Assembly (NCBI GenBank): GCA_033763455.1
Contig: JANRKO010000062.1
Location: forward strand, 87,816-151,815
Source: Polyangiaceae bacterium
GTDB lineage: Bacteria; Myxococcota_A; Polyangia; Polyangiales; Polyangiaceae
Direction: 5' to 3'
Length of the DNA stretch: 64,000 nt
The translations under genes and the position numbers were made by a program. Shown here piece by piece: positions 30,030-41,969 of the stretch (positions are counted from its first letter, which is position 1; each line of letters opens with the position of its first letter). Under the pieces are notes generated by a model. That model worked only from the letters and a program-made list of their open reading frames with translations, was not told where the DNA came from and did no database searches.

Positions 30030-30297
30030 GTCGGAGTTCTTTTTTCGGTGGTTGGCCGTTGTGCACGAGCTGCTTTATGGAGCGCAGCGGCGAGCGTAGG
30101 CTAGGGCGGTCATGAGGCGTAGCCAAGGTGTGCTCGGCGGGTAGCTCGGCGCACGGCGCTAATTTTGCGCGCTCTTGCCGCGATGCGAACGTTTGCGCGG
30201 TGAGGCTCCGCGCCTTGCGTGGGCCGTAGATATTGTGTTCATGTGGAGGCCGGTTGAGAGCTGCCACGTGGTTTGCGGTTGTGTCGGTTGGTGGGGC

Positions 30298-30828
30298 ATG
30301 AGTCAGTGGCGAAAGAAGTGGGCCCTCGCGCTCGCTCTTGCCATTGGCATCGGCACCGGTATTGGGGCCTACACGTTTAGGTATGCGGAGGGGCTTTCCT
30401 ATTTCAGCAAAGATCCTAGAGCGTGCGCCAATTGCCACATCATGCAGCAGTCCTATTCATCGTGGCAGATGGCGGGGCACCACACCGTGGCCGCTTGCGC
30501 GGATTGCCACCTGCCGCATGAGACCATTGCCAAATACCTAGCGAAGGCAGACAACGGCTGGCGGCACTCCCGCGCTTTTACCACGGGGAACTTTCCGGAA
30601 CCGCTAGAGATGATACCTAGAAGTCGCGCGATTCTGGAGAAGACCTGCCAAGGCTGCCACGAGGGTTTGGTGCAGGGAATGCTCAGCCAGGGCAACGAGG
30701 CGCCTGCGTGTTTGCACTGCCATAGCGATGTTGGCCACGGGGAACGCCTTGGCCTTGGGGGGCCTTTTGGTTCGACCGCTCTTGAAGCGCGGCAAATGCC
30801 TGCGCACGGCGTGAAACGGAAACCATGA
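30298..30828 (+). CDS. nrfH: Cytochrome c nitrite reductase small subunit (tetraheme NapC/NirT family)
   Basis: N-terminal TM helix and four CxxCH motifs (CANCHIM, CADCH, CQGCH, CLHCH). Overlaps nrfA. Confidence 0.9.
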
Positions 30829-32300
30829 CGACGGACAATAAAAGCCCAAGCTCAATCGCTCCAACCAGGCGCTGGTTGCTACCTTTGGCGACCCTTTCGG
30901 CAGCGGTTGTGGCTGCGCTCGTGACCGCCCTGCTCACCAATATTTTCGAGCACAAGGTGGAGCAGCAACAGGCTTGGGTCCGCGTGGTAAACGTCACGGA
31001 AAACGATACTGACCCGCTAAAGTGGGCTCCCAATTGGCCCGCCGAATACGACGGCTACAAACGCACGGCTTTGCCTACCAAGACTCGTTTTGGGGGGCAC
31101 GGTGGTAGCGAAGCCTTGCCAGAAGAAAAGCTCACGCGTGATCCTTGGCTCAAACGCATGTTTCTCGGCTACGCTTTCTCGCTGGATTATCGCGATCGGC
31201 GAGGCCATGCCTACATGCTGAGCGACCAAGAAGCTTCGCTTCGGCTAACCAAACCACAATCCGGCTCCTGCTTACACTGCCACGCGTCTATCATGCCGCT
31301 CTATCGCGAGCTTGGTAATGGCGACGCCATGCTGGGCTTGGAGAGGAGCTCTGCGTTCTCTTACGAGGAGTTAAATCAGAAGTTGCGCGCTTCGGGCCAC
31401 GCCCATCCGGTAAGCTGCGTTGATTGCCACGACCCGAAATCCATGTCGTTGCGGGTTACGCGGCCGGGCTTCTTGCGGGCAATTTCCGAGTTTGCGAATT
31501 CTGACGGCGAAGCTCAGGCCTTCCCTTCAATACAAGAGTGGCGCGTCGGAAAACGAGAAAAACCCTACGATCCGAACACCGACGCACGCCGTTCGGAAAT
31601 GCGCTCTTTTGTGTGCGGGCAGTGCCACGTTGAATATTACTGCGGCAAAAAAATGCCCCTCACATTCCCCTGGCAGAAAGGCTTAACCGCTGACGCCATC
31701 GAAGCGGTGTGGAACGAGACGACATTCAAAGACGGTACGCCGTTTTCTGATTTCGAGCACGCTGAGACGGGAGCCAAAGTGCTGAAAGCGCAGCACCCTG
31801 AGTTCGAGCTCTGGAGCCAAGGTATCCACGCACAAAGCGGAGTTTCCTGTGCCGATTGCCATATGCCCTACCAGCGCGAAGGCGCCACCAAAACGAGCGA
31901 CCACTGGGTGCGCAGCCCCCTGCTCAATGTGAACCGCGCCTGTCAAACTTGTCATCGCGCATCGGAGACGGAAATGCTTCGCCGTGTAGATGTGATCCAG
32001 CAGCGGACATATGAGCTTCTGCAACGCGGGGGTAGGGCAATGGTGGACCTTTTGGACGCGATCATGCTTGCGAAGAAGGCTGGCGTCCCTGAGGCGGAGC
32101 TTGCCCAAGCTCTGCTTCTTCAGCGCCAAGCCCAGTGGCGCCTCGATTACGTGGCTGCAGAAAATAGCATGGGTTTTCATGCCCCACAGGAGGCCGCGCG
32201 CCTGTTGGCGGTGGCAATCGATCAGGCTCGCCAGGGGCAACTCAGTGCGCTCTCAGCTCGGGCCGCTCACGAACTTACCGGCAAACCGGAGGTGCCGTAG
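30825..32300 (+). CDS. nrfA: Ammonia-forming pentaheme cytochrome c nitrite reductase, CxxCH heme-1 type
   Basis: RGHAY, five CxxCH (CLHCH, CVDCH, CGQCH, CADCH, CQTCH), [24 protein letters not shown]. Confidence 0.92.
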
Positions 32301-32465
32301 ATGAAACTCGCTATGCATCCTCTGTTGAGGGTGCAGCTAGGGCCCGTACGGAAGTCGGGTTCGACGTATAAGAAGGTGCGATGCTGCGTGTCGCAGTTCA
32401 TCTAAAATCGCGAGGAATTTGTGGGTGTGTGAGAGTGCGAACTAACGCATCATCTGGTGGCGATC

Positions 32466-33716
32466 ATGGCAAAGTGGCAACCAGTGAGCATGAGAAACAG
32501 CTCCGCCCCGAGTGTTGTGATACTGATAAGTTTGTCAGGCTTTATGGTCGTGGCCTCTTGCAGCTCCGGGGGGCCGAACGTTCCTTATGCTCCGGACCTC
32601 AGTTCAGCGACGAGCGTCGGGGGGGCCGTTGCAGGTCTGCCGTTAGGTCCTGTGCAGAAGGTAACCGGGGGGGGTGCTGGCGTAAACACGGTTCCAACTT
32701 CCACGCTTGGAACGGGCGGTGCTCCGAGGCAACCTTCCAGCGGCGGTGCGCCAGCCGTGAACCCGAATACCTCACAGACTGGTGGGAAATCCCCGGGGAG
32801 CGGTGGAACGAACCAAAATGTTGGCTCTGGCGGAGCGTCGAGTACCTGCGTGGATACCCCGCCTCCCAACGGTGACACCTGCGCGCATGCGTTGGAATAC
32901 GGTTGGTGTGGCTTGCCATGGATGAATGGCGCGTGTGCTGCCTCCTGTGGCATCTGCACCGGAGGTGGTGACGCTGGTACGGGCGGCGCACCTACCACGG
33001 GCGGCTCCTCCAACTCCGGCAATCCGGAGCTGCCGCCTCCCATCGAAGGAGGTACGCCTGCGTGGGCCTCACGCTATTGGGATTGCTGTAAGCCTGCGTG
33101 TGGCTGGAGCGACAACGTTGCCAGCAAGACCGCGATGAAGAGTTGCAACTTCCAAAATCAGAGCATCGGTGCCACTAACGCGGCCAGTGCGTGTCAAGGC
33201 GGCGGGGCTTACATGTGCTGGGATGGCGTGCCTTGGGCCGCGAGCGACAAGTTGGCTTACGGTTATGCCGCCGCTTCGGGGAGCAACTACAGCTGCGGAC
33301 GCTGCTATCAGCTTCAGTTTACTGGAACGGGTAAACACGGAAACACCCCCGGCACCGCGTCTTTGAGCGGCAAGACCATGATCGTGCAGGTCGTGAACAA
33401 TGGCGGCGTGGCCGCGGATCAATTCGATATCTTGATCCCTGGGGGCGGCGTTGGAGACTTCAACGCCTGCTCGGCTCAGTGGGGCACCTCTGATTTGGGT
33501 GCCCAATACGGAGGCTTCCTGACCGCTTGCGGCGGACAGAGCTCATGCGTTGCCGCGAAGTGCCAGAGTGTCTTCGCCGGCAAACCCGAACTCCTGGCGG
33601 GTTGCCAGTGGTTCCTCGGATGGTATGGGGCGGCCGACAATCCCAACCTCGTGTACAAGCAGGTCGCGTGCCCGAGCGCTATACTACAGAGATCTGGATT
33701 GCCGGACCCTGGCTGA
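32466..33716 (+). CDS. GH45 endoglucanase with Gly/Ser/Thr linker and small six-Cys domain, probably a lipoprotein
   Basis: SRYWDCCKPACGW and QFDILIPGGGVG (both catalytic Asp), CGRCYQLQF, GKTMIVQ, GCQWF..W..ADNP. VASC lipobox-like. Start uncertain. Confidence 0.9.
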   Translation: MAKWQPVSMRNSSAPSVVILISLSGFMVVASCSSGGPNVPYAPDLSSATSVGGAVAGLPLGPVQKVTGGGAGVNTVPTSTLGTGGAPRQPSSGGAPAVNPNTSQTGGKSPGSGGTNQNVGSGGASSTCVDTPPPNGDTCAHALEYGWCGLPWMNGACAASCGICTGGGDAGTGGAPTTGGSSNSGNPELPPPIEGGTPAWASRYWDCCKPACGWSDNVASKTAMKSCNFQNQSIGATNAASACQGGGAYMCWDGVPWAASDKLAYGYAAASGSNYSCGRCYQLQFTGTGKHGNTPGTASLSGKTMIVQVVNNGGVAADQFDILIPGGGVGDFNACSAQWGTSDLGAQYGGFLTACGGQSSCVAAKCQSVFAGKPELLAGCQWFLGWYGAADNPNLVYKQVACPSAILQRSGLPDPG

Positions 33717-33741
33717 GGCGTTTGAGTGCGGGGGACCGCTC

Positions 33742-33921
33742 TTATTGGAAAATGGAGGGCTGCGGCTCTGGCGCAGGTGCCGGAGCGGGCTCTTCGCCTT
33801 TCTTCTTTTTCTTGCCGCCGTCGCAAAGGGTATCCGCGACTGGGGAAGGGGTTGCGGCTTGAGCCAAACCGGAGATCGAAAGCATAAGGGCGCTGAGGCC
33901 GAGGACAGAGAGTTTCTTCAT
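33742..33921 (-). CDS. Unannotated 59-aa secreted peptide with a Lys5 tract
   Basis: Manual translation: MKKLSVLGLSALMLSISGLAQA|ATPSPVADTLCDGGKKKKKGEEPAPAPAPEPQPSIFQ. Textbook Sec signal (AQA). TTGACA on the minus strand at 33955-33960. Falls below the 60-aa cutoff of the ORF track. Confidence 0.7.
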   Translation of the reverse strand: MKKLSVLGLSALMLSISGLAQAATPSPVADTLCDGGKKKKKGEEPAPAPAPEPQPSIFQ

Positions 33922-34135
33922 GGTGGTCTAATGTGTGGGGTGGGAAGGGGAGGGTGTCAAGGGGGCCCGTCGCGCCTGTGGACGGCTGGCTTTAGTTCGT
34001 GCCGAGGTTTGTGGCCACGGCTTCGATAGGCCTGGGTCGAAAGGCCGACTGTCTGCGGGAGGCGTTCTGAAGGTGCCACCGTCACCGGTTAGCTAGCTGT
34101 GCTGGCCCGAGTGCTGATCTATCGTTGCCGGTCGA

Positions 34136-36040
34136 ATGAGCAGCCCCTCAGTCGCAGTACGAGGTCGAGGCCGCCGGCGTTCCAAGGCGCTCGGGCCTGT
34201 GCAAGATTACGCAGCACACGTTGAGCCAGATTGGTGGCGCCACGTCTTTGGTGCTTTGTACCTCAAGACGGATGGAGATGTTGTCGACGACGCCGCAATC
34301 ACGCGTCGCGAAGTGGATGCGTTGCTTGGTATCGTCGACCTTTCACCGACAGATCGAGTGCTTGATCTATGTTGTGGGCAAGGGCGCCACACACTTGAGT
34401 TAGCGCGTCGTGGGTTCGTTGGAGTGGAGGGCGTTGATCAATCGCGTTACCTCTTACGCCGAGCTCGCGAAACGGCCCGCAGTGAGGGGCTAGTGGTGCG
34501 CTTTCGTGAGGGTGATGCGCGAGAGGTGGGGAGCCTGCCCGGGGGACTCGATGCCGTGCTCATTATGGGCAACAGCTTCGGCTACTTCGATGCGGCTGAG
34601 GACGATTTGCGTGTGCTTGGCGGGGTGCGCAGCATCTTGAAGCCTGGCGGGAAGCTTTTCCTTGATATTACCGACGGAGAGTGGCTGCGCGAGGCATTTG
34701 AGCCGCGATCGTGGGAGTGGATCGACGCGAGCATGTTTGTATGCCGGGAGCGTTGGCTGTCGCCCGACGGTCGCATGGTATCGCGCGAGGTGATCACCGA
34801 TACCGGCAAAGGCGTCATCAAGGATCAATTTTACGCGGAGCGCCTGTACACGAGAGCAGAGCTAGCAGCGCTCCTGGCGCAGGCCGGTTTCGTCGATTTT
34901 ACGGTCCATCAAGAATTCGCGGGCAGCTCGGAGCGCAACCAAGATCTCGGGATGATGGCGCACCGCTTGTTCATTACGGCGATTGCAGGTGAGGTGCAGG
35001 CTCCGCGGCAAGCAGTTCCGCGTGAGCTTGTGGTGGTGCTCGGAGATCCGGGAAAGCCTGATCCTGTCAAGCCCGATGGTGCCTTCGGCGGGGACGATCT
35101 GGATGCCATCGGACGCATGAAGGCCGCTCTTGAGCGGCCCGGCCGGCGGGTGCGCTACCTCTCCAACCACGACGCTCTCCTCGATCAGCTGAAGCAACTC
35201 GCTGGTGGCTCTGCGTTAGTGGTCAACCTGTGCGACGAAGGCTATCGAAACCTACCGTTTTGCGAGCTCCACGTGCCGGCTTTGCTGGAAGCACTCGATC
35301 TTCGCTACACGGGCGCCGGCCCCCAGTGTTTGGCCCGGTGTTTCGACAAAGGGCTCGTGCGTGGCCTCGCGCGCGACCTTGGCATTCCGGTAGCCTCCGC
35401 AACGCTAATCGGCCAAAGTGATCCCATCCCAGCCTTCACCACCCCGGTGATCGTAAAGCCCAATCACGGCGACGGCAGCTTCGCGATCGATGAGAAATCA
35501 GTGGCGTTCAATGCCCAAGAGCTTGCTGCTGCAGTCGCCAACGTTCGCCGCCTTGCCGGGGCTAACGCGTTGATACTCGTTGAGGAGCTGCTCACCGGGG
35601 CCGAGCTCGGAGTTGGAATTTTGGGCAATCCCCCAGGGCCCCACCAGGTGTTGCCCATCATTCAAGAGGATTATTCGAGCTTGCCACCCGGGTTGCCCCA
35701 GATTTGCGGGTATCCCTCCAAGTGGGACCCTTCCTCGCCGTATTGGAACCTGCGTTCGATCCCGGCGGTGCTTCCCGAAGAAACAGCGCGCTTGATCACT
35801 GACTTTAGTGTGCGGCTTTTTGAGCGCCTGGAGTGTCGCGACTACGCGCGCTTCGACTGGCGGCTCGATACAAATGGGCGTCCGCATCTTCTAGAGGTGA
35901 ATCCGAATCCGGGCTGGTGCTGGGATGGGCACCTGGCCAAGATGGCGGCCCTTGCGGGGATGTCGTACCCCGAGCTGCTCGACGCGGTACTTCAGGCCGC
36001 CGAAGAGCGCCTGAAGGTCGAAGTTCGCGGTGCTGCGTGA
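34136..36040 (+). CDS. Class I SAM methyltransferase fused to a D-Ala-D-Ala-ligase-like ATP-grasp domain
   Basis: VLDLCCGQGRH, MGNSFGYF and LKPGG (MTase). Then YTGAGP..L...DK, IVKPNHGDGSFAI, VEELLTGAE, DYARFDWR, LEVNPNPG (ATP-grasp). Confidence 0.88.
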   Translation: MSSPSVAVRGRGRRRSKALGPVQDYAAHVEPDWWRHVFGALYLKTDGDVVDDAAITRREVDALLGIVDLSPTDRVLDLCCGQGRHTLELARRGFVGVEGVDQSRYLLRRARETARSEGLVVRFREGDAREVGSLPGGLDAVLIMGNSFGYFDAAEDDLRVLGGVRSILKPGGKLFLDITDGEWLREAFEPRSWEWIDASMFVCRERWLSPDGRMVSREVITDTGKGVIKDQFYAERLYTRAELAALLAQAGFVDFTVHQEFAGSSERNQDLGMMAHRLFITAIAGEVQAPRQAVPRELVVVLGDPGKPDPVKPDGAFGGDDLDAIGRMKAALERPGRRVRYLSNHDALLDQLKQLAGGSALVVNLCDEGYRNLPFCELHVPALLEALDLRYTGAGPQCLARCFDKGLVRGLARDLGIPVASATLIGQSDPIPAFTTPVIVKPNHGDGSFAIDEKSVAFNAQELAAAVANVRRLAGANALILVEELLTGAELGVGILGNPPGPHQVLPIIQEDYSSLPPGLPQICGYPSKWDPSSPYWNLRSIPAVLPEETARLITDFSVRLFERLECRDYARFDWRLDTNGRPHLLEVNPNPGWCWDGHLAKMAALAGMSYPELLDAVLQAAEERLKVEVRGAA

Positions 36041-36411
36041 TCGCTATTGGCCGAGGGATCCATGGGCGCGGGGTGTTTGCGCAACGCCCGTTTGTAGCCG
36101 GTGAACTGATCGAACGCGCCCCGGTGCTCGTGATTCCGGCAGCCGAGATCGAGTGGCTGGATCGCACGATGCTCTACGATTATTACTTCGCTTGGGGCCA
36201 AGATCCGGAAAACGCGGCGATAGCTATGGGCTTAGGCTCGTTCTACAACCACGCGGTGCAGCCCAATGCCGAACACGTTTGCCACATCAGTGAGCTTTCA
36301 ATCGACTTTATCGCACTTGTGGATATCGCCGCTGGCGAGGAGATCACCATTCACTACAACGCGTCGCCGGGCGATGCCTCGCCGGTATGGTTCGAGGTAC
36401 CCCGTCCATGA
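36037..36411 (+). CDS. SET-domain protein (lysine methyltransferase fold)
   Basis: HGRGVFA, GELIE, SFYNHAVQPNA (NHxxxPN), DIAAGEEITIHY. GTGA overlap. Confidence 0.88.
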   Translation: MIAIGRGIHGRGVFAQRPFVAGELIERAPVLVIPAAEIEWLDRTMLYDYYFAWGQDPENAAIAMGLGSFYNHAVQPNAEHVCHISELSIDFIALVDIAAGEEITIHYNASPGDASPVWFEVPRP

Positions 36412-37400
36412 GGCTCACCGTTCTGCTTGGTGACAGGGAACGCGCAGCAGCTGTGGTGCCGGGAATGTCGCTCGGCGAGGTCGACAGAGTGAGCTTTGAG
36501 GCACTCGATGCCGCTTTGGCTGATTTGCCCTACGCTGTTACCACGATCGCTAGCCACGCACATTTGATTGACGATCTGCGCGCGCTTGTGGGTCATACTG
36601 ATTTGGTCCTCAACCTTTGCGATGAGGGCTACCGCAACGATCTTCGGCTGGAGCTCCACGTGCCCGCGCTCTTAGAAATGTTGGAGCTGCCGTACACCGG
36701 GGGCGCACCGCGTTGCCTTGCGTATTGCTACGACAAATCGCTCGTACGCGGCATTGCCCAGGAGTTAGGCGTTCCGGTCGCCCGAGGCGTGCTTCATGCT
36801 CCCGGCGCGCCCATCGGTGAGCCTTCCTTCGGTTTCCCGGCCATCGTGAAACCAAACTTTGGGGACGGCAGCTTCGGCATCACCACTCGCAGTGTGGCCC
36901 GCGACGCCGCGGAATTCACGCGCGCGATTCTGGAGCTGCGGGAGCTCTATCGCGGCGCGATCCTTGTGGAGGAATACCTGCCCGGGCAGGATGTGGATGT
37001 CGGTGCTGTGGGCAACACGGGGGCTTGGACGATCTTCCCGCTCTCTACCGTCGACTATTCAAACGTTGCTCCCGGGGTTCCCCACATTGCGAGTCACGAA
37101 TTCAAGTGGGAAGAGGTGTCGCCGTACGAAACGACGACGATTGGACCGGCCACGCTACCCGCTGAGGTTGAGGCCGGGATCTCGGCCTGGTCGATTCAAT
37201 TGCTCGATCGTCTTGAATGTCGCGATTACGCGCGCGTCGATTGGCGGCTCGCCGCCGACGGTTCACCGCGGCTCCTCGAAGTCAATCCCAACACCGGTTG
37301 GGGAGCGGCGGGCCGCCTGGCAGACATGGCGGCCCTCGCGGGGCTTTCGTATAGAGACCTGCTTCGCACGATTATCGAAGCAGCACTCGCGCGGGGTTGA
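36408..37400 (+). CDS. Stand-alone D-Ala-D-Ala-ligase-like ATP-grasp enzyme, paralogue of the upstream C-terminal domain
   Basis: LNLCDEGYRN..LELHVPALLE, IVKPNFGDGSFGI, VEEYLPG, DYARVDWR, LEVNPNTG. ATGA overlap. Confidence 0.88.
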   Translation: MRLTVLLGDRERAAAVVPGMSLGEVDRVSFEALDAALADLPYAVTTIASHAHLIDDLRALVGHTDLVLNLCDEGYRNDLRLELHVPALLEMLELPYTGGAPRCLAYCYDKSLVRGIAQELGVPVARGVLHAPGAPIGEPSFGFPAIVKPNFGDGSFGITTRSVARDAAEFTRAILELRELYRGAILVEEYLPGQDVDVGAVGNTGAWTIFPLSTVDYSNVAPGVPHIASHEFKWEEVSPYETTTIGPATLPAEVEAGISAWSIQLLDRLECRDYARVDWRLAADGSPRLLEVNPNTGWGAAGRLADMAALAGLSYRDLLRTIIEAALARG

Positions 37401-37454
37401 AGCGGCGCACACGGCCAATTGGGTGCCCAAGTGGTAATTCAGGCTGTAAACAGC

Positions 37455-38771
37455 CTACTTGGCAACCTTTTTCACGGAGTGTTCGCCCTGCGACGTGTAA
37501 TAAACAGCGCTCGCATCGAGCGCGATGCCGGCGAGATCTACCTCGCCGGTCGCAAGCGCAACGGGAAGTGAGGCGCCCTTCTGTAGAGCCATTACCTTGC
37601 CGGAACGGTTGACCCAGTAAATACCCGATGCGTCGACAGCGAGATCTGCGGGCTCGGATGGGTCGATAGCTAGAAGTTGCGGAGTGCCGCCTGCAAGCGG
37701 AACCGTGGATACTTCGCCTGTGGCCGAATCCACCCAGTAGAGCGAATTGTTGAATAAACGGAGACCGACGGGTCGAACCAAGCCACCCACCAAAATGCTG
37801 GAGGAGCCCGGTGCCGAGACTTTGTAAATGCCCTTTGCGGCACTGAAATAGACGACACCATCTTTTGCGATGACGTCGAGTGGGCGATCGATTTTCTCAG
37901 CGAGCTTCTGCTGGCTTGTTCCGTCGAGTTTCACGGACATCACGGCGCCTTCAAGTGCACCGCTTGCACCCTCGGCGGCCCAGTAAATCGTGCCGCCTTC
38001 GACAGCGATACCTCGGGCACCATCGACGCCACCACTGATATACCGCGCAGACGTGAGGAGTGCCTTATCCCTCACCCAAGCCCCCTTGGTACCGCCGTCG
38101 TTGCAGGTCCAATAGATGCTGGTGTCGTCCGCCGTGATGCCCCATGTGTTGCCGGGGTAGCCGGCCACTTCCATTGGCATCGCACCCCCGGGCGCAGCTA
38201 GCTGGCGGACTGCGGGCGTTTGGTAGGCTCCGTTGGAGGTCCAATACACGAGGCCACCTGTGACCATTAGGTGCTTGGGCTGGTCCTGGCCGGCAGCGAG
38301 CAAGATAGAGCCGCACGCGCCAGAATTGCACGAGGCGCCCAAGCAATCGCGGCCGCAGGCTCCACAGTTCTTCGCATCGACCTGCAAATCTATCTCGCAA
38401 CCGTCACTTCCGGTCTGGTTACAGTCTGCAAACGAGCCCCTGCATTGGATCCCGCACTCTCCCGCTTCGCAGACGGGAAAGCTCGCCGGGCCCGAGCCGC
38501 ACACTTTTGCGGTGCTGCCACAGGCGCGCGGATCGCCGAAACGGCTGGGGGTACTCATGAACCCTGCCGTGCCGGCCTGTGCGTTGCCGTGAAGCTTCGC
38601 CCCACCAAAAGAACCCGCACCTCCGCTGCCAGCCCCTGAACCGATGCCCGTGCCCGCGGCGGCACCCGCACCCATACTTTCAACCGCGGCCGTGGGTGCA
38701 CAGCTTGCTGCTCCTGTCGCCGCACACAGAACTACGCTCAGAAAACGTGATGGCACGCTTAGGCCCTCCAT
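37455..38771 (-). CDS. Secreted beta-propeller protein with myxobacterial Cys-rich repeat
   Basis: Gly-rich linker, then FADCNQ..DGCEIDL..DAKNCGACGRDC, then repeated IAVD...IYW blades. Start may be GTG 38756. Confidence 0.75.
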   Translation of the reverse strand: MEGLSVPSRFLSVVLCAATGAASCAPTAAVESMGAGAAAGTGIGSGAGSGGAGSFGGAKLHGNAQAGTAGFMSTPSRFGDPRACGSTAKVCGSGPASFPVCEAGECGIQCRGSFADCNQTGSDGCEIDLQVDAKNCGACGRDCLGASCNSGACGSILLAAGQDQPKHLMVTGGLVYWTSNGAYQTPAVRQLAAPGGAMPMEVAGYPGNTWGITADDTSIYWTCNDGGTKGAWVRDKALLTSARYISGGVDGARGIAVEGGTIYWAAEGASGALEGAVMSVKLDGTSQQKLAEKIDRPLDVIAKDGVVYFSAAKGIYKVSAPGSSSILVGGLVRPVGLRLFNNSLYWVDSATGEVSTVPLAGGTPQLLAIDPSEPADLAVDASGIYWVNRSGKVMALQKGASLPVALATGEVDLAGIALDASAVYYTSQGEHSVKKVAK

Positions 38772-38821
38772 TGTGGGGGACGAGCGACACCGAGAACACC
38801 AGAAGGCACGCTTAGGCCCTC
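38752..38821. repeat. 17-bp direct repeat GGCACGCTTAGGCCCTC x2, 53 bp apart
   Basis: Exact copies at 38752-38768 and 38805-38821, spanning the DUF1552 stop and the next gene start. Confidence 0.8.
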
Positions 38822-40245
38822 AATGCTGGAAGATCGACAAAGTATTGTGGATCCCCAAAGCGATCCACGTTCACGCCCATGGCCTGGCAAAGCGCAGTTA
38901 AAAGACCAGTGTTCGAAACGTTCTCGTCCGCTTTTCCGCCCACCCAACGCAAAAATTGCCCAGTTTTGAAATAGCCACCACAGCTTCCAGCTAACACCCA
39001 AGGTAAATCTGTAATGCGGTGGGAGGCGCCCTCGGCAAATACGTTAGCGCAGAGCACTGCACTTTGGTCGAGGAGGGTCGTGCCATCCGGCTCGTGGTAC
39101 TGCTTCATTCGCTCAATAATGTAAGCAAATTGGCTGATAAACCACTGATCAACCAGGTTTTTACGTCGAGTGTGTGCTGCGTCTGTATACGCGTGGTGCG
39201 CTATCTCGTGATGCTGCCGCAGTGGCCCACCGCTTCCTGCGTTATCAGCATCACGCCCGGTAATAAATTCATCCCCCAACCAAAAGAAGGAATACCCCCA
39301 GTTGCTGGAATTCGACCACAAGAGCGAGGCCACGCGAACCAAATCACAAGCCAGAGCCGTGACTACCATGTCAGCCTGAAGCTTGTGCACGGTAGGGATG
39401 AGGGGCGTGTACTGGGAATTGACGTAATCCAAGCTGGCGTCTGGCCGCGTCGGCGCGCTGCAGGTGGCAGTGAAAGCCTGCAATTCCTGCTCTAGCTGGC
39501 GAACGGATGCGAGGTGCTGGTCGATCTGTTGGCGATCTTCGGTGCCCATGTTCTTGCCAAAAGCTTCCAGATCTCTACCCAAATAGTCGAAAACGCTCTT
39601 TCGGGCGGCCCGTATCCGCGCCAAGCGGTCAGAGGTCAGCGCGGCACCACCGAAGAGGCGATCGAAAAGCCGCACCGGATCCGTCTCGGGCTCCGGAGCA
39701 TTGGGCTGACCGCCGAGCGCGCTGCCGTGAAAAGATATGAAGCGGTCGTTGCCGTTTTGCTTAATGCACTGCAGCTGAAGGGAATGGATCGGCGTCTTTG
39801 AAGCTTTTGCGAACTCATCCGCGATGAACATATCGACAGAGGGGCCACCGGCCGAGAGAGGCACACCGTCGCTGATGGTGCCGTTGATGGCCGCGCCGTC
39901 CACGCCGGTAAACATAAACGGCATTGAAGCATGCCCTCCGCCCTGCTTCTGGTTCGGGTACGTCATGCCGCCCACGATGAGAATGTCGTTTTGGTGGGGG
40001 ATGAGGGGCTTCAAGACAGACTGCTCGTCCGTTGAAATCGTAAACGAAGCTGGGTCAGCCATCGGAAAGCCACCCGCGGGCCAGAATGCATCACCGATGA
40101 CTCCATTGGGCCAAGCCATCAAAACGAGGCGTTTGGGGAGGGTTGAATTGGCGCTCACGCCCACCCGCGCTTGGAGCAGTGGTAAGAAAGCAGCGCTCAC
40201 CCCGAGCGCTTGCAAAATAGCACGGCGCGAGAACTTGGAGTTCAT
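38812..40245 (-). CDS. DUF1552-family protein with Tat signal (copy 3)
   Basis: SRRAILQALG..AAFLPLL, PKRLVLMAWPNG, GPSVD, HLASVRQLE, CDLVRVAS, LLDQSAVL...EGASH. Confidence 0.9.
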   Translation of the reverse strand: MNSKFSRRAILQALGVSAAFLPLLQARVGVSANSTLPKRLVLMAWPNGVIGDAFWPAGGFPMADPASFTISTDEQSVLKPLIPHQNDILIVGGMTYPNQKQGGGHASMPFMFTGVDGAAINGTISDGVPLSAGGPSVDMFIADEFAKASKTPIHSLQLQCIKQNGNDRFISFHGSALGGQPNAPEPETDPVRLFDRLFGGAALTSDRLARIRAARKSVFDYLGRDLEAFGKNMGTEDRQQIDQHLASVRQLEQELQAFTATCSAPTRPDASLDYVNSQYTPLIPTVHKLQADMVVTALACDLVRVASLLWSNSSNWGYSFFWLGDEFITGRDADNAGSGGPLRQHHEIAHHAYTDAAHTRRKNLVDQWFISQFAYIIERMKQYHEPDGTTLLDQSAVLCANVFAEGASHRITDLPWVLAGSCGGYFKTGQFLRWVGGKADENVSNTGLLTALCQAMGVNVDRFGDPQYFVDLPALRA

Positions 40246-41969
40246 TGGGTTACCTCTCCCGTCGCTACTTTGCGCAGCCTGAAAGCCGGGCTTTCCGCAA
40301 TGGAAATCAAGAGCTTCGTGAGATCGAAGCCAGATGCGGCGAAAGATTGGTAGCTTGCATCCAGCGATGGCCCATCTTCGGAAACCTCAGCACGGCGCAA
40401 GGCAAAGCGGAACCATTGACGCGCCATACAGCGACGAACCTGCTCACTTTGGGCAAGCAGAGCTGCGAGCTCGGGTGCACCCGAAAAGGACACTCGTGCG
40501 CCATCCAGCCCTTCGATGAACCCTGTAGTGTCAATGGGCGTGGGCCCGGCAGCGGGGATAACCCCGCCGATAGCGTCGTAATTGCTGAAGCCAAACCCAA
40601 TTGGATCCATCAAGCTGTGGCACGTTCGGCACGGTTCCACCGTGCTGTGCATGGCCAACTGTTCCCGCTGCGAGACCCCGGCCACAGGCGCTGGGAGCTT
40701 GGGGACGTTATTCGGCGGTGGCGGTAGCGGCGAACAATTGATGAAGTGTTCACGAATCAGCTTGCCTCGCAGGATTGCCGAACCTTCGTAGGCATTGGCG
40801 TGGGTTGAGAGGATGCTCGCCTGCGTCAAGAGCCCCGCACGCTCGCTCGACTTGAGCTCCACGCGCCGAAGAGCGTTCCCCGTGACACCGGCAATTCCAT
40901 AGAGCTTCGCCGTGGATTCGTTCAAGAAAGAAAAGGGAGCTGTCATCAGTGTATCGAAGCGAGCATTGCCTTCAAAGAAGACGCTTTCAACGAACGCCAT
41001 CGTTTCTTCACGCATCGATTGCCGGAGCTCATTCGTGTAGCCAGGAAAGGCGACCGGATCTTTCACGTTGTGCGCGAGGCTATCTAGGTCGAGCCACTGC
41101 CGGTGAAAATCGCGCACGGTAGCGCGCGCACGGGGATCTAGGAGCATACGCTGCGCCTCAGCGGCTAGCTCCGAAGGGCGCGTAAGGGCATGAGCTTCGG
41201 CGCGAGAGAGGAGCGCCTCATCCGGCATGGAGCTCCAGAGGAAGTACGAAAGCCGCGAGGCAAGCTCGTAATCTGTGAGTGCGATGAGCTTTCCTGGCCC
41301 TGGAACCCCAGCGGGAGTGGCCCCGAGCTCCCAGTGGTAGAGAAACTGAGGGGACTGCAACATCGCAGACAGGACAACCTGGATACCATCCGCGTAGGTT
41401 GTTTCGGGAACAGCGCGAAATGTTGCGTACACGCCTGTGAGCTCAGCGCGCTCAGCGTCTGTCAGTGGCCGACGGAAAGCCGCTCGCCCGAATTTGCTCA
41501 AGAATGCATCAAAGCAAGCGCTTTCGCCCGTTTGCCCCGCGGTACAGGGCGCAAGGTCCGCGGTGCGGAGGGCGGCGCTGGCAGCAAGGGATTCTGCCGC
41601 ATCAAGATAACTTCTAGCGTCGATATTCGAGAAGGTTCCCGGCGTGGAATAGCCAGAACCGCCGCTTGTTTCCCCAGGGAAAGCGTCGGCTGGCCGTGTG
41701 GTATCGCCGAGCAGATCCCGAACTGTATTGTTATATTCTTCGTGTGTGAGCCGGCGCAAAGGCTGCACGGCCCCGGTGGGGTCGCCCGAGGAGCCTCCTG
41801 TGCCCGGGGTGTTAGCAGCACCTGAGGCGGAACCATCTGCTGCATTTGCTGCCCCGCCTGTGCTGTTCGCAATTTCCTGAGAAGCGGGTTTGTTTTCGGC
41901 GCAGGAAAGCGAAAGGGCCGCTGGCGCAAGAGCAAAAAGGAGGGCTGCATGTCGCCGTGAGCCGGGCAC
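40242..41969 (-). CDS. DUF1592/DUF1588-family mono-heme lipoprotein (copy 3)
   Basis: LRRLTHEEYNNTVRDLLG, AFRRPL, LQSPQFLY, ELASRLSYFLWSSMPD, CRTCHSLMDPIGFGFSNYDAIG. Confidence 0.9.
   Translation of the reverse strand: MPGSRRHAALLFALAPAALSLSCAENKPASQEIANSTGGAANAADGSASGAANTPGTGGSSGDPTGAVQPLRRLTHEEYNNTVRDLLGDTTRPADAFPGETSGGSGYSTPGTFSNIDARSYLDAAESLAASAALRTADLAPCTAGQTGESACFDAFLSKFGRAAFRRPLTDAERAELTGVYATFRAVPETTYADGIQVVLSAMLQSPQFLYHWELGATPAGVPGPGKLIALTDYELASRLSYFLWSSMPDEALLSRAEAHALTRPSELAAEAQRMLLDPRARATVRDFHRQWLDLDSLAHNVKDPVAFPGYTNELRQSMREETMAFVESVFFEGNARFDTLMTAPFSFLNESTAKLYGIAGVTGNALRRVELKSSERAGLLTQASILSTHANAYEGSAILRGKLIREHFINCSPLPPPPNNVPKLPAPVAGVSQREQLAMHSTVEPCRTCHSLMDPIGFGFSNYDAIGGVIPAAGPTPIDTTGFIEGLDGARVSFSGAPELAALLAQSEQVRRCMARQWFRFALRRAEVSEDGPSLDASYQSFAASGFDLTKLLISIAESPAFRLRKVATGEVTQ

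What the first reader, a model, noticed from the sequence alone, without database searches (positions are those of the whole stretch)
33742..37400. Candidate peptide/amide-modifying system: MTase-ATP-grasp fusion, SET domain and second ATP-grasp, divergent from a small secreted peptide
Seen: three translationally coupled genes (GTGA and ATGA overlaps) encode two methyltransferases of different folds (class I and SET) and two paralogous Ddl-like ATP-grasp domains sharing a LNLCDEGYRN..ELHVPALLE block. No peptidoglycan genes are nearby. Established: ATP-grasp enzymes form amide or ester bonds, SET domains methylate Lys amines, and SET/ATP-grasp neighbourhoods have been noted in bacteria, though I know of no defined product. 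Inference: the operon builds a methylated short peptide or modifies a protein substrate. The divergent poly-Lys peptide is a possible substrate.
Basis: partly seen in the sequence, partly recalled or inferred. Interest (0 to 1): 0.78.

Follow-up and report, generated by a model that had tools for sequence, protein, structure and literature searches.

The report
Methyltransferase-ligase operon with small SET protein
Three overlapping genes encode two amide-bond-forming ligases and two methyltransferases that most likely build a small methylated peptide-like molecule of unknown identity, and the central enzyme belongs to a large uncharacterised family found in many bacteria and archaea.

Summary
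Window 34136-37400 (+) carries three overlapping genes: a class I methyltransferase fused to a Ddl-like ATP-grasp ligase (634 aa), a 124-aa SET protein, and a second ligase (330 aa, 48% identical to the first). Neither ligase is a D-Ala-D-Ala ligase. Both score about 95 bits against a 245.65-bit cut-off and lack the D-Ala-binding residues, and the genome has two true Ddl genes elsewhere.

The fusion is the core. At least 593 species genomes encode it, across many bacterial phyla and archaea, at about 55% identity and with no universal neighbour. SET and the second ligase are rare accessories. SET lies within 6 kb in 5 of 80 fusion loci, and a second family ligase in 0 of 80. Seen from the SET side, 16 of 80 mini-SET loci sit beside such ligases, in several arrangements.

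The methyltransferase domain is closest to NmbA, which N-methylates a small-molecule amine. I favour a cytoplasmic pathway making an N-methylated dipeptide-like metabolite (confidence 0.5). Modification of a protein is the main rival.

The Lys-rich peptide is not a partner. Two same-genus genomes that lack the operon keep it, next to different genes.

The parts
34136..36040 (+). Bifunctional protein (634 aa): N-terminal class I SAM methyltransferase fused to a C-terminal Ddl-like ATP-grasp ligase. It is the conserved core of the system.
   Evidence: Pfam and NCBIfam. More than 100 full-length homologues at 54-68% identity. 593 confirmed stretches in species genomes. AF2 model mean pLDDT 80.1, pTM 0.55.
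34238..34930 (+). Methyltransferase domain (residues 35-265), NmbA-like, with Rossmann core plus cap.
   Evidence: phmmer against PDB: 9RI2 (NmbA) E 7.6e-26 over query residues 35-265. Weaker matches to glycine/sarcosine N-MT, CypM and DesVI. SAM motif residues are invariant in A1.
35027..36013 (+). ATP-grasp ligase domain 1 (residues 298-626).
   Evidence: BLASTP against the second ligase. Foldseek top hits are Ddl structures, TM by target 0.7-0.8, 22% identity. ATP, Mg and catalytic positions are kept; D-Ala positions are replaced.
36037..36411 (+). Mini-SET protein (124 aa), GTG start overlapping the fusion's stop codon (GTGA).
   Evidence: Pfam SET 57.6 bits. GxG, NH and C-terminal Tyr columns are invariant in A2. 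Nearest solved structures are S. pombe Set7 (5h6z, E 2e-23) and chlorella virus vSET (1n3j).
36408..37400 (+). Second, stand-alone ATP-grasp ligase (330 aa), ATG start overlapping the SET stop codon (ATGA). It is a divergent paralogue of the fusion's ligase domain.
   Evidence: 48% identity to domain 1. Only three close homologues, at 64-67% identity. It forms a 4-row clade on a long branch inside the fusion-family clade. Catalytic residues are kept, but the substrate loop reads GWGAAGR instead of GWCWDGH.
33922..34135 (.). 214-bp intergenic region upstream of the operon; presumed promoter and 5' UTR.
   Evidence: Read directly. No sigma-70-like site and no Rfam match, so its role is inferred from position only.

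Best explanation
This is a cytoplasmic three-enzyme operon that most likely makes a small N-methylated, amide-linked (dipeptide-like) metabolite.

Proposed mechanism:
1. The fusion protein is the core. Its ATP-grasp domain activates a carboxylate as an acyl phosphate and joins it to an amine.
2. The fused NmbA-like domain then N-methylates a free amine of that product with SAM.
3. In this lineage two accessory genes extend the chemistry. The paralogous second ligase, which has a different substrate loop, adds or accepts a different building block. The mini-SET adds methyl groups to a lysine-type side-chain amine.

Shown: domain identities, intact catalytic residues, loss of D-Ala-specific residues, family distribution, and the recurrent SET-ligase linkage.

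Inferred: that the substrate is a small molecule, the order of steps, a lysine or other cationic building block, and any role of the product (osmolyte or other abundant metabolite).
For: 1. Both ligases keep the ATP, Mg and catalytic positions of E. coli DdlB (K97, K144, E180, K215, R255, D257, E270, N272). They lack E15, and carry W for Y216 and G-H or G-R for S281-L282 (the residue roles are recalled).

2. The methyltransferase domain's best solved relative is NmbA (E 7.6e-26), which methylates the cysteine amine of bacillithiol (PMC12719100, abstract and sections 9-10 read). Other matches are also amine-directed small-molecule or peptide N-methyltransferases.

3. The fusion has no universal neighbour in 80 loci. 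This fits an enzyme that uses common metabolites.

4. Relatives of the ligase sit in amino-acid or small-molecule contexts:
- L144: methyltransferase, lysine 2,3-aminomutase, SET, ligase, ligase-GNAT, all on one strand.
- L157: ligase, ligase, SET, ligase, GNAT.
- L204: ectoine-synthase-like/ATP-grasp, M20 peptidase, a ligase-containing protein, GNAT.
- L201 and L202: ligase beside an S15 dipeptidyl-peptidase-family gene.

5. SET-ligase linkage: 16 of 80 SET loci; ATP-grasp is the commonest true neighbour cluster, in 17 of 80; 5 changes on the 97-row fusion tree, at least 4 of them forced.

6. The family-invariant GWCWDGH loop, the CDEG motif and the EEDYS motif replace Ddl's substrate-site residues with acidic and aromatic ones. 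This is compatible with a cationic substrate (inference).
Against: - No product, substrate or expression data exist.
- All characterised SET enzymes known to me act on protein lysines (recalled), and the nearest solved SETs are histone methyltransferases. This favours a protein target.
- The lysine/beta-lysine hint rests on one locus of 80 (L144).
- 46 of 50 fusion-bearing genomes showed no mini-SET, so SET may be only loosely tied to the ligase chemistry.
- Identity of about 55% between archaeal and bacterial copies could also reflect contact with a conserved macromolecule.
- The model's domain arrangement is uncertain (pTM 0.55), so coupling of the two active sites is not shown.
- Many loci in the SET sample come from a few lineages: seven of the 16 are the Methanoculleus type.
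Confidence: 0.5

Rival explanations
1. A protein-modifying system. The SET methylates a lysine of a cellular protein. The ATP-grasp ligases add amino acids to that protein, as RimK or tubulin tyrosine ligase do. The class I domain methylates its N-terminus or another amine.
For: The nearest solved SETs are protein (histone) lysine methyltransferases. A eukaryotic protein, TTLL12, combines SET-like and ATP-grasp (TTL-like) domains (PMC3520985; listing and abstract seen). The very high conservation of the fusion across domains of life would fit a conserved macromolecular target.
Against: No candidate substrate gene is conserved beside the fusion in 80 loci. The ligases fall with Ddl, not RimK: Pfam lists only Dala_Dala_lig_C and ATP-grasp_4, and the ligase tree agrees. 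The methyltransferase's closest characterised relative acts on a small molecule. Related ligases lie with GNAT, aminomutase, ectoine-synthase-like and peptidase genes.
Confidence: 0.25
2. SET is not part of the chemistry. It either methylates and regulates the ligase itself, or is merely carried along with it by gene transfer. The fusion and the second ligase act alone.
For: SET was found in only 4 of 50 fusion-bearing genomes and within 6 kb in 5 of 80 loci. Its position varies: upstream, downstream, or 3 kb away on the other strand.
Against: Translational coupling in this window. Linkage arose at least four times and extends to other Ddl-like ligase families. That is hard to explain without a shared function.
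Confidence: 0.1
3. The operon modifies the divergently encoded Lys-rich peptide in a RiPP-like manner.
For: Adjacency and divergent orientation. The peptide has five consecutive lysines, which a SET could in principle methylate.
Against: Homologous peptides occur in G002 and G003 beside yggX-like and PP2C-like genes (names by my reading of the translations). Those genomes have no match to the operon. The peptide has no match in 80 fusion loci, 80 SET loci or 13 further loci. It has one copy in the genome and no Pfam family. Its N-terminus looks like a Sec signal peptide, not a RiPP leader (by eye).
Confidence: 0.03
4. The ligases are variant cell-wall D-Ala-D-X ligases (Ddl/Van type).
For: The best HMM and structural matches are Ddl and VanA.
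Against: Scores are 95.9 and 92.8 bits against a cut-off of 245.65, and two genes elsewhere in the genome pass it. The D-Ala-binding positions are replaced. The family is present in archaea that lack murein. No mur or fts genes are nearby.
Confidence: 0.03

Closest known systems
D-alanine--D-alanine ligase (DdlB, VanA)
   Same: Same ATP-grasp fold (Foldseek TM by target about 0.8). The ATP, Mg and catalytic residues are shared. It is the best-scoring HMM family.
   Different: About 22% identity. Scores lie far below the family cut-offs. E15, Y216, S281 and L282 are replaced, and there are two insertions. It is fused to a methyltransferase and occurs in archaea. There is no cell-wall gene context.
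NmbA, bacillithiol N-methyltransferase (PDB 9RI2)
   Same: It is the closest solved relative of the methyltransferase domain, aligned over Rossmann core and cap (E 7.6e-26). It is an amine-directed small-molecule methyltransferase (PMC12719100).
   Different: NmbA is a stand-alone 266-aa enzyme of bacillithiol producers. The paper found no archaea with the Bsh pathway (passages read), whereas this fusion is common in archaea. The substrate is therefore probably different.
Minimal SET lysine methyltransferases (chlorella virus vSET; S. pombe Set7)
   Same: Same size class and the same conserved SAM and catalytic motifs.
   Different: Those enzymes methylate histone H3. Here the gene is coupled to amide ligases in a bacterium, and the target is unknown.
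Ngg, the bifunctional enzyme of N-acetylglutaminylglutamine amide synthesis (recalled; not seen in any call)
   Same: As I recall it, one polypeptide joins an ATP-grasp dipeptide ligase to an amine-capping domain and makes an N-capped dipeptide osmolyte. This is the closest functional analogy for the fusion.
   Different: The cap there is an acetyltransferase (GNAT), not a methyltransferase. No sequence comparison was made here. GNAT-ligase fusions do occur beside SET in L144.
TTLL12 (eukaryotic SET-like plus tubulin-tyrosine-ligase-like protein)
   Same: It combines a SET-like module and an ATP-grasp module (PMC3520985, abstract seen in listings).
   Different: It is a eukaryotic single polypeptide whose ligase belongs to the TTL branch, not the Ddl branch. 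No homology test was done.

Membership tests
D-alanine--D-alanine ligase (TIGR01205 / NF002378) | Score at or above the curated family cut-off | tested here: not met
   95.9 and 92.8 bits against 245.65. Two other genes in G000 score 315.1 and 252.6.
D-alanine--D-alanine ligase (TIGR01205 / NF002378) | D-Ala-binding residues (DdlB E15, Y216, S281, L282; roles recalled) | tested here: not met
   Alignment with E. coli DdlB: gap at E15, W at 216, G-H (fusion) or G-R (second ligase) at 281-282.
ATP-grasp superfamily, Ddl-like branch | ATP-grasp fold with ATP, Mg and catalytic residues (DdlB K97, K144, E180, K215, R255, D257, E270, N272; roles recalled) | tested here: met
   All eight positions are kept in both ligases. 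Foldseek top hits are Ddl structures. Pfam Dala_Dala_lig_C 77 bits against a cut-off of 24.
Class I SAM methyltransferase, NmbA-like amine-directed group | SAM-binding Rossmann core plus cap homologous to NmbA | tested here: met
   Methyltransf_25 62.2 bits against 27. 9RI2 E 7.6e-26 over residues 35-265.
NmbA proper (bacillithiol N-methyltransferase) | Co-occurrence with bshA, bshB and bshC, and bacillithiol as substrate | not tested
   The bsh genes were not searched for. Presence of the fusion in archaea, where the paper found no Bsh pathway, argues against membership by inference only.
SET-domain lysine methyltransferase | SET domain above threshold with GxG, NH and catalytic Tyr motifs (motif names recalled) | tested here: met
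   PF00856 57.6 bits against 22.4. G10, G12, N71, H72 and Y107 are invariant in 20 sequences.
SET-domain lysine methyltransferase | A protein lysine as substrate | not testable with these tools
   No substrate can be read from sequence. The complex prediction gave no verdict.
RiPP / graspetide-type ATP-grasp system | A precursor peptide gene that travels with the ligase | tested here: not met
   The peptide was not found in the 173 related loci searched. It is present in relatives that lack the operon.
RiPP / graspetide-type ATP-grasp system | Ligase belongs to the RimK-like or graspetide branch | tested here: not met
   Only Ddl-type models match. The ligases form a clade next to Ddl. No graspetide ligase was placed in the tree.

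The most novel reading that the evidence does not exclude
The methyltransferase-ATP-grasp fusion is the synthase of an unrecognised N-methylated dipeptide-like metabolite (an osmolyte or a low-molecular-weight thiol or buffer). The metabolite would be made by hundreds of mostly anaerobic bacterial and archaeal species, Asgard archaea and methanogens among them. Prokaryotic mini-SET proteins that travel with these ligases would methylate the lysine-type amine of that small molecule rather than a protein. That would be the first small-molecule SET methyltransferase, and a biochemical role for bacterial SET proteins.
Probability: 0.25. Interest if true: 0.85.

Novelty: new variant of a known kind. 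Interest (0 to 1): 0.6.

Why it matters
First, the fusion is one of the more widespread enzymes still without a function. It has at least 593 species-level genome hits across many bacterial phyla and several archaeal lineages, at about 55% identity. Curated libraries name it only 'methyltransferase domain-containing' or, wrongly, 'D-alanine--D-alanine ligase'. Finding its product would correct thousands of annotations and could reveal a common metabolite of anaerobic microbes.

Second, what SET-domain proteins do in prokaryotes is an old open question. Their recurrent coupling to amide ligases gives a concrete in vitro test: ligase product plus SAM plus SET.

This window is the richest version of the system so far, with fusion, SET and second ligase translationally coupled. 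That makes it a good construct for heterologous expression.

Tried and rejected
- Complex prediction of SET with the two ligase domains: no verdict, score 0.00. It is not used as evidence either way.
- RNA evidence: no RNA holder was listed for the stretch. The laid runs were short DNA contigs only, so nothing can be said about expression.
- Riboswitch or leader search: no Rfam match in window 33500-37800 at E up to 0.1. Only two tRNAs were found in 15 of the 80 fusion loci at gathering thresholds.
- Promoter and terminator scan: 0 promoter-like sites, and terminator-like sites at the chance level.
- PADLOC: only a generic methyltransferase match (mad2, residues 42-188) for the fusion, and nothing for the others. 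I do not read this as a defence role.
- Earlier findings of this scan: nothing by place or by sequence.
- Literature: nine full-text searches found no description of the fusion family or of bacterial SET-ATP-grasp operons. Two papers that might discuss them (PMC3268129, PubMed 21507350) are not held. I therefore cannot say the association is unpublished.
- Linking the closest SET and second-ligase homologues to shared contigs: the cluster look-up gave no accessions. That P0002 (68% fusion) and P0125 (67% SET) share one contig rests only on equal source and contig length (3269), which is an inference.
- The closest SET relatives (85% and 70% identity) were not among the 80 metagenome loci returned, so their neighbours remain unseen.
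- Distant Ddl-like genes in relatives of G000, including frames with two tandem ligase matches, have no SET within the 1.5 kb fetched on either side. I set them aside.
- I considered a bacillithiol-type thiol pathway because of NmbA. I did not adopt it, because the family occurs in archaea. The bsh genes were not searched for.
Full report
**What is in the sequence**

The ORF list and direct reading of the junctions confirm three same-strand genes:
- 34136-36040, 634 aa.
- 36037-36411, 124 aa. Its GTG start overlaps the previous stop codon as GTGA.
- 36408-37400, 330 aa. Its ATG start overlaps the SET stop codon as ATGA.

Pfam finds a class I methyltransferase domain (Methyltransf_25, 62 bits) and a Dala_Dala_lig_C ATP-grasp domain (77 bits) in the first protein. 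It finds SET (57.6 bits) in the second and Dala_Dala_lig_C (77 bits) in the third. The two ligase parts are 48% identical over 330 residues (E 8e-95).

The surrounding genes are unrelated:
- a NapC/NirT-type and a cytochrome c552 pair
- a secreted GH45-domain protein
- a DUF5050-like protein
- a DUF1552/DUF1592 pair

A 491-base contig from a run of a different study covers the fusion/SET junction without a difference (X3 record 20). The arrangement is not peculiar to one assembly.

**The ligases are not D-Ala-D-Ala ligases**

Against NCBIfam the best models are Ddl and Van families, but at 93-103 bits against cut-offs of 243 and more. A whole-genome search with TIGR01205 finds two genes elsewhere that pass the cut-off (315.1 and 252.6 bits). 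The two operon ligases score 95.9 and 92.8.

I aligned both ligases with E. coli DdlB, taken from NC_000913.3. They keep the positions I recall as ATP-, Mg- and transition-state-binding: K97, K144, E180, K215, R255, D257, E270 and N272. They differ at the D-Ala positions:
- The GGxSxEHEVS motif with E15 is absent.
- H63 is E.
- Y216 is W.
- S281-L282 is G-H in the fusion and G-R in the second ligase.

The AlphaFold2 model of the fusion has mean pLDDT 80.1 and pTM 0.55. Its best Foldseek hits are Ddl structures, at TM by target about 0.8 and 22% identity. Both ligases thus look catalytically competent, but for other substrates.

The loop that lines the second-substrate site is GWCWDGH and is invariant in 15 diverse fusions. 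It reads GWGAAGR in the second ligase. The two ligases should therefore differ in specificity.

**The fusion is the core, and it is a very large uncharacterised family**

A search of 5.8 billion proteins returned 120 listed full-length homologues. All carry both domains, at 54-68% identity. They are named, where named at all, 'methyltransferase domain-containing protein' or 'D-alanine-D-alanine ligase'.

The 80 loci kept carry titles from more than twenty phylum-level groups:
- Bacteria: Planctomycetota, Thermotogota, Atribacterota, Calditrichota, Bacteroidota, Chloroflexota, Desulfobacterota-type groups, Omnitrophota, Sumerlaeota and others.
- Archaea: Methanoculleus, Methanosarcinaceae, Asgard lineages and Nitrosotalea.

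Mean column identity in a 15-sequence alignment is 73%. In a 97-row tree, archaeal and bacterial sequences are interleaved, which points to frequent transfer. The window's copy is a lone long branch.

Within the window's own phylum, 12 of 401 sampled genomes (G000 included) carry a full fusion and 4 more a ligase-only relative. None of the 29 other genomes of its family does. The three same-genus genomes, 94-95% complete, have no match. The operon was probably acquired by this lineage.

**Neighbours of the fusion**

All-against-all clustering of ORFs from the 80 loci found no neighbour shared beyond single lineages. The largest true cluster covers 14 loci, all but one (Sumerlaeota) Planctomycetota by their titles.

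A second ligase of this family is present in 0 of 80 loci. Two loci have a distant Ddl-like gene at 25-30% identity. A mini-SET lies within 6 kb in 5 of 80:
- Four are Methanoculleus-type loci. There SET lies 3 kb upstream on the other strand, separated by an ABC transporter pair.
- One (L077) has SET directly downstream.

Only 4 of the first 50 fusion-bearing genomes have a mini-SET anywhere at E up to 1e-10. The other 30 were not searched. In the phylum sample, 5 of 9 fusion loci have SET directly upstream. All five are from one genus.

The second ligase has only three close homologues (64-67% identity), all on short contigs. In the ligase tree these four form a clade with 100% support on a long branch inside the fusion-family clade. 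The three-gene set as such was not seen in any other locus.

**The view from the SET side**

The SET protein belongs to a family of proteins of about 124 aa found in many bacteria. The SAM-binding and catalytic columns are invariant. Its closest solved relatives are S. pombe Set7 and chlorella virus vSET.

Eighty metagenome loci encode SET relatives at 42-56% identity; 17 of these loci are shorter than 2.5 kb. Sixteen of the 80 have a fusion or another Ddl-like ATP-grasp gene beside SET. ATP-grasp is the commonest true neighbour cluster, in 17 of 80 loci. The arrangements differ:
- SET then fusion (L102, L103, L141).
- The Methanoculleus type (seven loci).
- ligase, ligase, SET, ligase, GNAT (L157, and probably L130).
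- L144: methyltransferase, lysine 2,3-aminomutase, SET, ligase, ligase-GNAT, bestrophin, all on one strand.
- Single adjacent ligases (L146, L147, L100).

On the 97-row fusion tree, SET linkage needs five changes, at least four of them forced by well-supported branches. Eight of those rows were chosen because they carry SET. The count of origins is therefore meaningful, but the frequency is not. The other SET-linked ligases share E at DdlB position 63 and mostly W at 216.

SET and this branch of ATP-grasp ligases are therefore functionally tied. The tie is optional for the ligase.

**The Lys-rich peptide**

The 59-aa ORF is a real gene. G002 and G003 encode close homologues with the same signal-like N-terminus and the motif CDGGKKKKKGEEP. 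There they sit between other genes, which by my reading of the translations are a yggX-like gene and a PP2C-like phosphatase.

Those genomes have no match to the operon. The peptide has one copy in G000, no Pfam family and no counterpart in any related locus. It is an unrelated neighbour, apparently exported.

**What the system most likely does**

The methyltransferase domain's best solved relative is NmbA (9RI2, E 7.6e-26, aligned over core and cap). NmbA methylates the cysteine amine of bacillithiol. That paper groups it structurally with amine-directed natural-product methyltransferases such as CypM, CcbJ and DesVI (PMC12719100; abstract, sections 9 and 10, and passages read). Weaker matches here are to glycine/sarcosine N-methyltransferases and a daptide N-methyltransferase model.

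Four further points fit a small-molecule product:
- The ligases have a Ddl-type closed active site.
- The fusion has no conserved partner gene.
- Related ligases lie with small-molecule genes (aminomutase, GNAT, ectoine-synthase-like, M20 and S15 peptidase genes).
- The remodelled pocket is acidic and aromatic.

The most economical model is a bifunctional synthase that ligates two common building blocks and N-methylates the product. In this window a second ligase and a SET then tailor it further. The analogy I have in mind is the acetyltransferase-ligase enzyme of N-acetylglutaminylglutamine amide synthesis. That analogy is recalled, not tested. I put this model at 0.5.

The main rival, at 0.25, is modification of a protein. 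It is favoured by everything known about SET domains and by the extreme conservation of the fusion. Regulation of the ligase by SET, or mere co-transfer, gets 0.1. Modification of the neighbouring peptide and a cell-wall role get about 0.03 each.

**What remains open**

No product, substrate or expression evidence exists. The lysine link rests on SET chemistry and one aminomutase-containing locus. The contexts of the closest homologues of all three genes could not be retrieved. I found no paper describing the system in nine searches, but two likely sources were not available.

**Verdict**

This is a real, compact and unusual operon. Its core enzyme belongs to a large, mis-annotated family of unknown function. 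The SET linkage is genuine and recurrent, but neither the exact three-gene set nor the peptide partner is conserved. I rate it a new variant of a known kind (ATP-grasp amide ligation plus methylation) with interest 0.6.

Noticed in passing
window 33742-33921 (-); L179 192-446 (+); L180 576-803 (+): A small protein is conserved within the genus. It has a signal-like N-terminus, then CDGGKKKKKGEEP and a Pro/Ala-rich tail. In G002 and G003 it lies beside a yggX-like gene and a PP2C-like phosphatase (names by my reading of the translations), not beside the operon. Its function is unknown.
   Followed up: partly
L144 5-7044 (+): A metagenome operon on one strand: class I methyltransferase, lysine 2,3-aminomutase-like radical SAM enzyme, mini-SET, Ddl-like ligase, ligase fused to GNAT, bestrophin. 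It looks like a lysine/beta-lysine-derived small-molecule pathway.
   Followed up: partly
L157 143-3356 (+); L130 77-3390 (+): Mini-SET flanked by three Ddl-like ATP-grasp genes and followed by a GNAT acetyltransferase (GNAT confirmed by Pfam in L157 only).
   Followed up: partly
L204 4305-12084 (-): A genome of the same order as G000 carries, in order: an ectoine-synthase-like domain fused to an ATP-grasp, an M20 peptidase, a 1008-aa protein whose C-terminus is a ligase of the fusion family (its N-terminal 800 residues have no Pfam match), a GNAT, and a 398-aa unknown.
   Followed up: no
L201 2853-6005; L202 1538-6036: In two genomes of the phylum, a stand-alone ligase of this family lies next to an S15 (X-Pro dipeptidyl-peptidase family) gene.
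   Followed up: no
L052 2779-7962 and the like (L045, L068, L079, L128, L139, L140, L154, L161, L163): Methyltransferase-ligase fusion and mini-SET on opposite strands, 3 kb apart, in the Methanoculleus-type loci. L052, the one locus annotated, carries an ABC ATPase, an ABC-2 permease and a 125-aa protein without a Pfam match in the gap, and a 255-aa ORF cluster (the permease's length) recurs in these loci. The pair might export the product.
   Followed up: no
relatives of G000, e.g. G025:C35:250552-252465 and G028:C33:36925-38838: Open frames of 650-756 aa that hold two tandem Ddl-like ATP-grasp matches (30-35% identity to the second ligase) occur in several genomes of the family and order. 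No SET lies within the 1.5 kb fetched on either side.
   Followed up: partly
ESM Atlas clusters: Clusters with the same methyltransferase plus Dala_Dala_lig_C make-up are labelled mostly eukaryotic (Chytridiomycota; Ascomycota, feature score 0.92). This is a lead that the fusion also exists in fungi. It was not checked.
   Followed up: no
window 32457-33716 (+): A secreted protein with a long Gly/Ser/Thr-rich region and a C-terminal GH45 endoglucanase domain (130 bits). As far as I recall, this family is uncommon in bacteria.
   Followed up: no
window 30175-32300 (+): A NapC/NirT-type tetrahaem cytochrome followed by a cytochrome c552 (NrfA-like, 396 bits). This is a nitrite-ammonifying pair.
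   Followed up: no
window 38812-41969 (-): A DUF1552 protein followed by a multi-domain DUF1592/1588/1595/1585/1587 protein, a pairing whose function is unknown.
   Followed up: no
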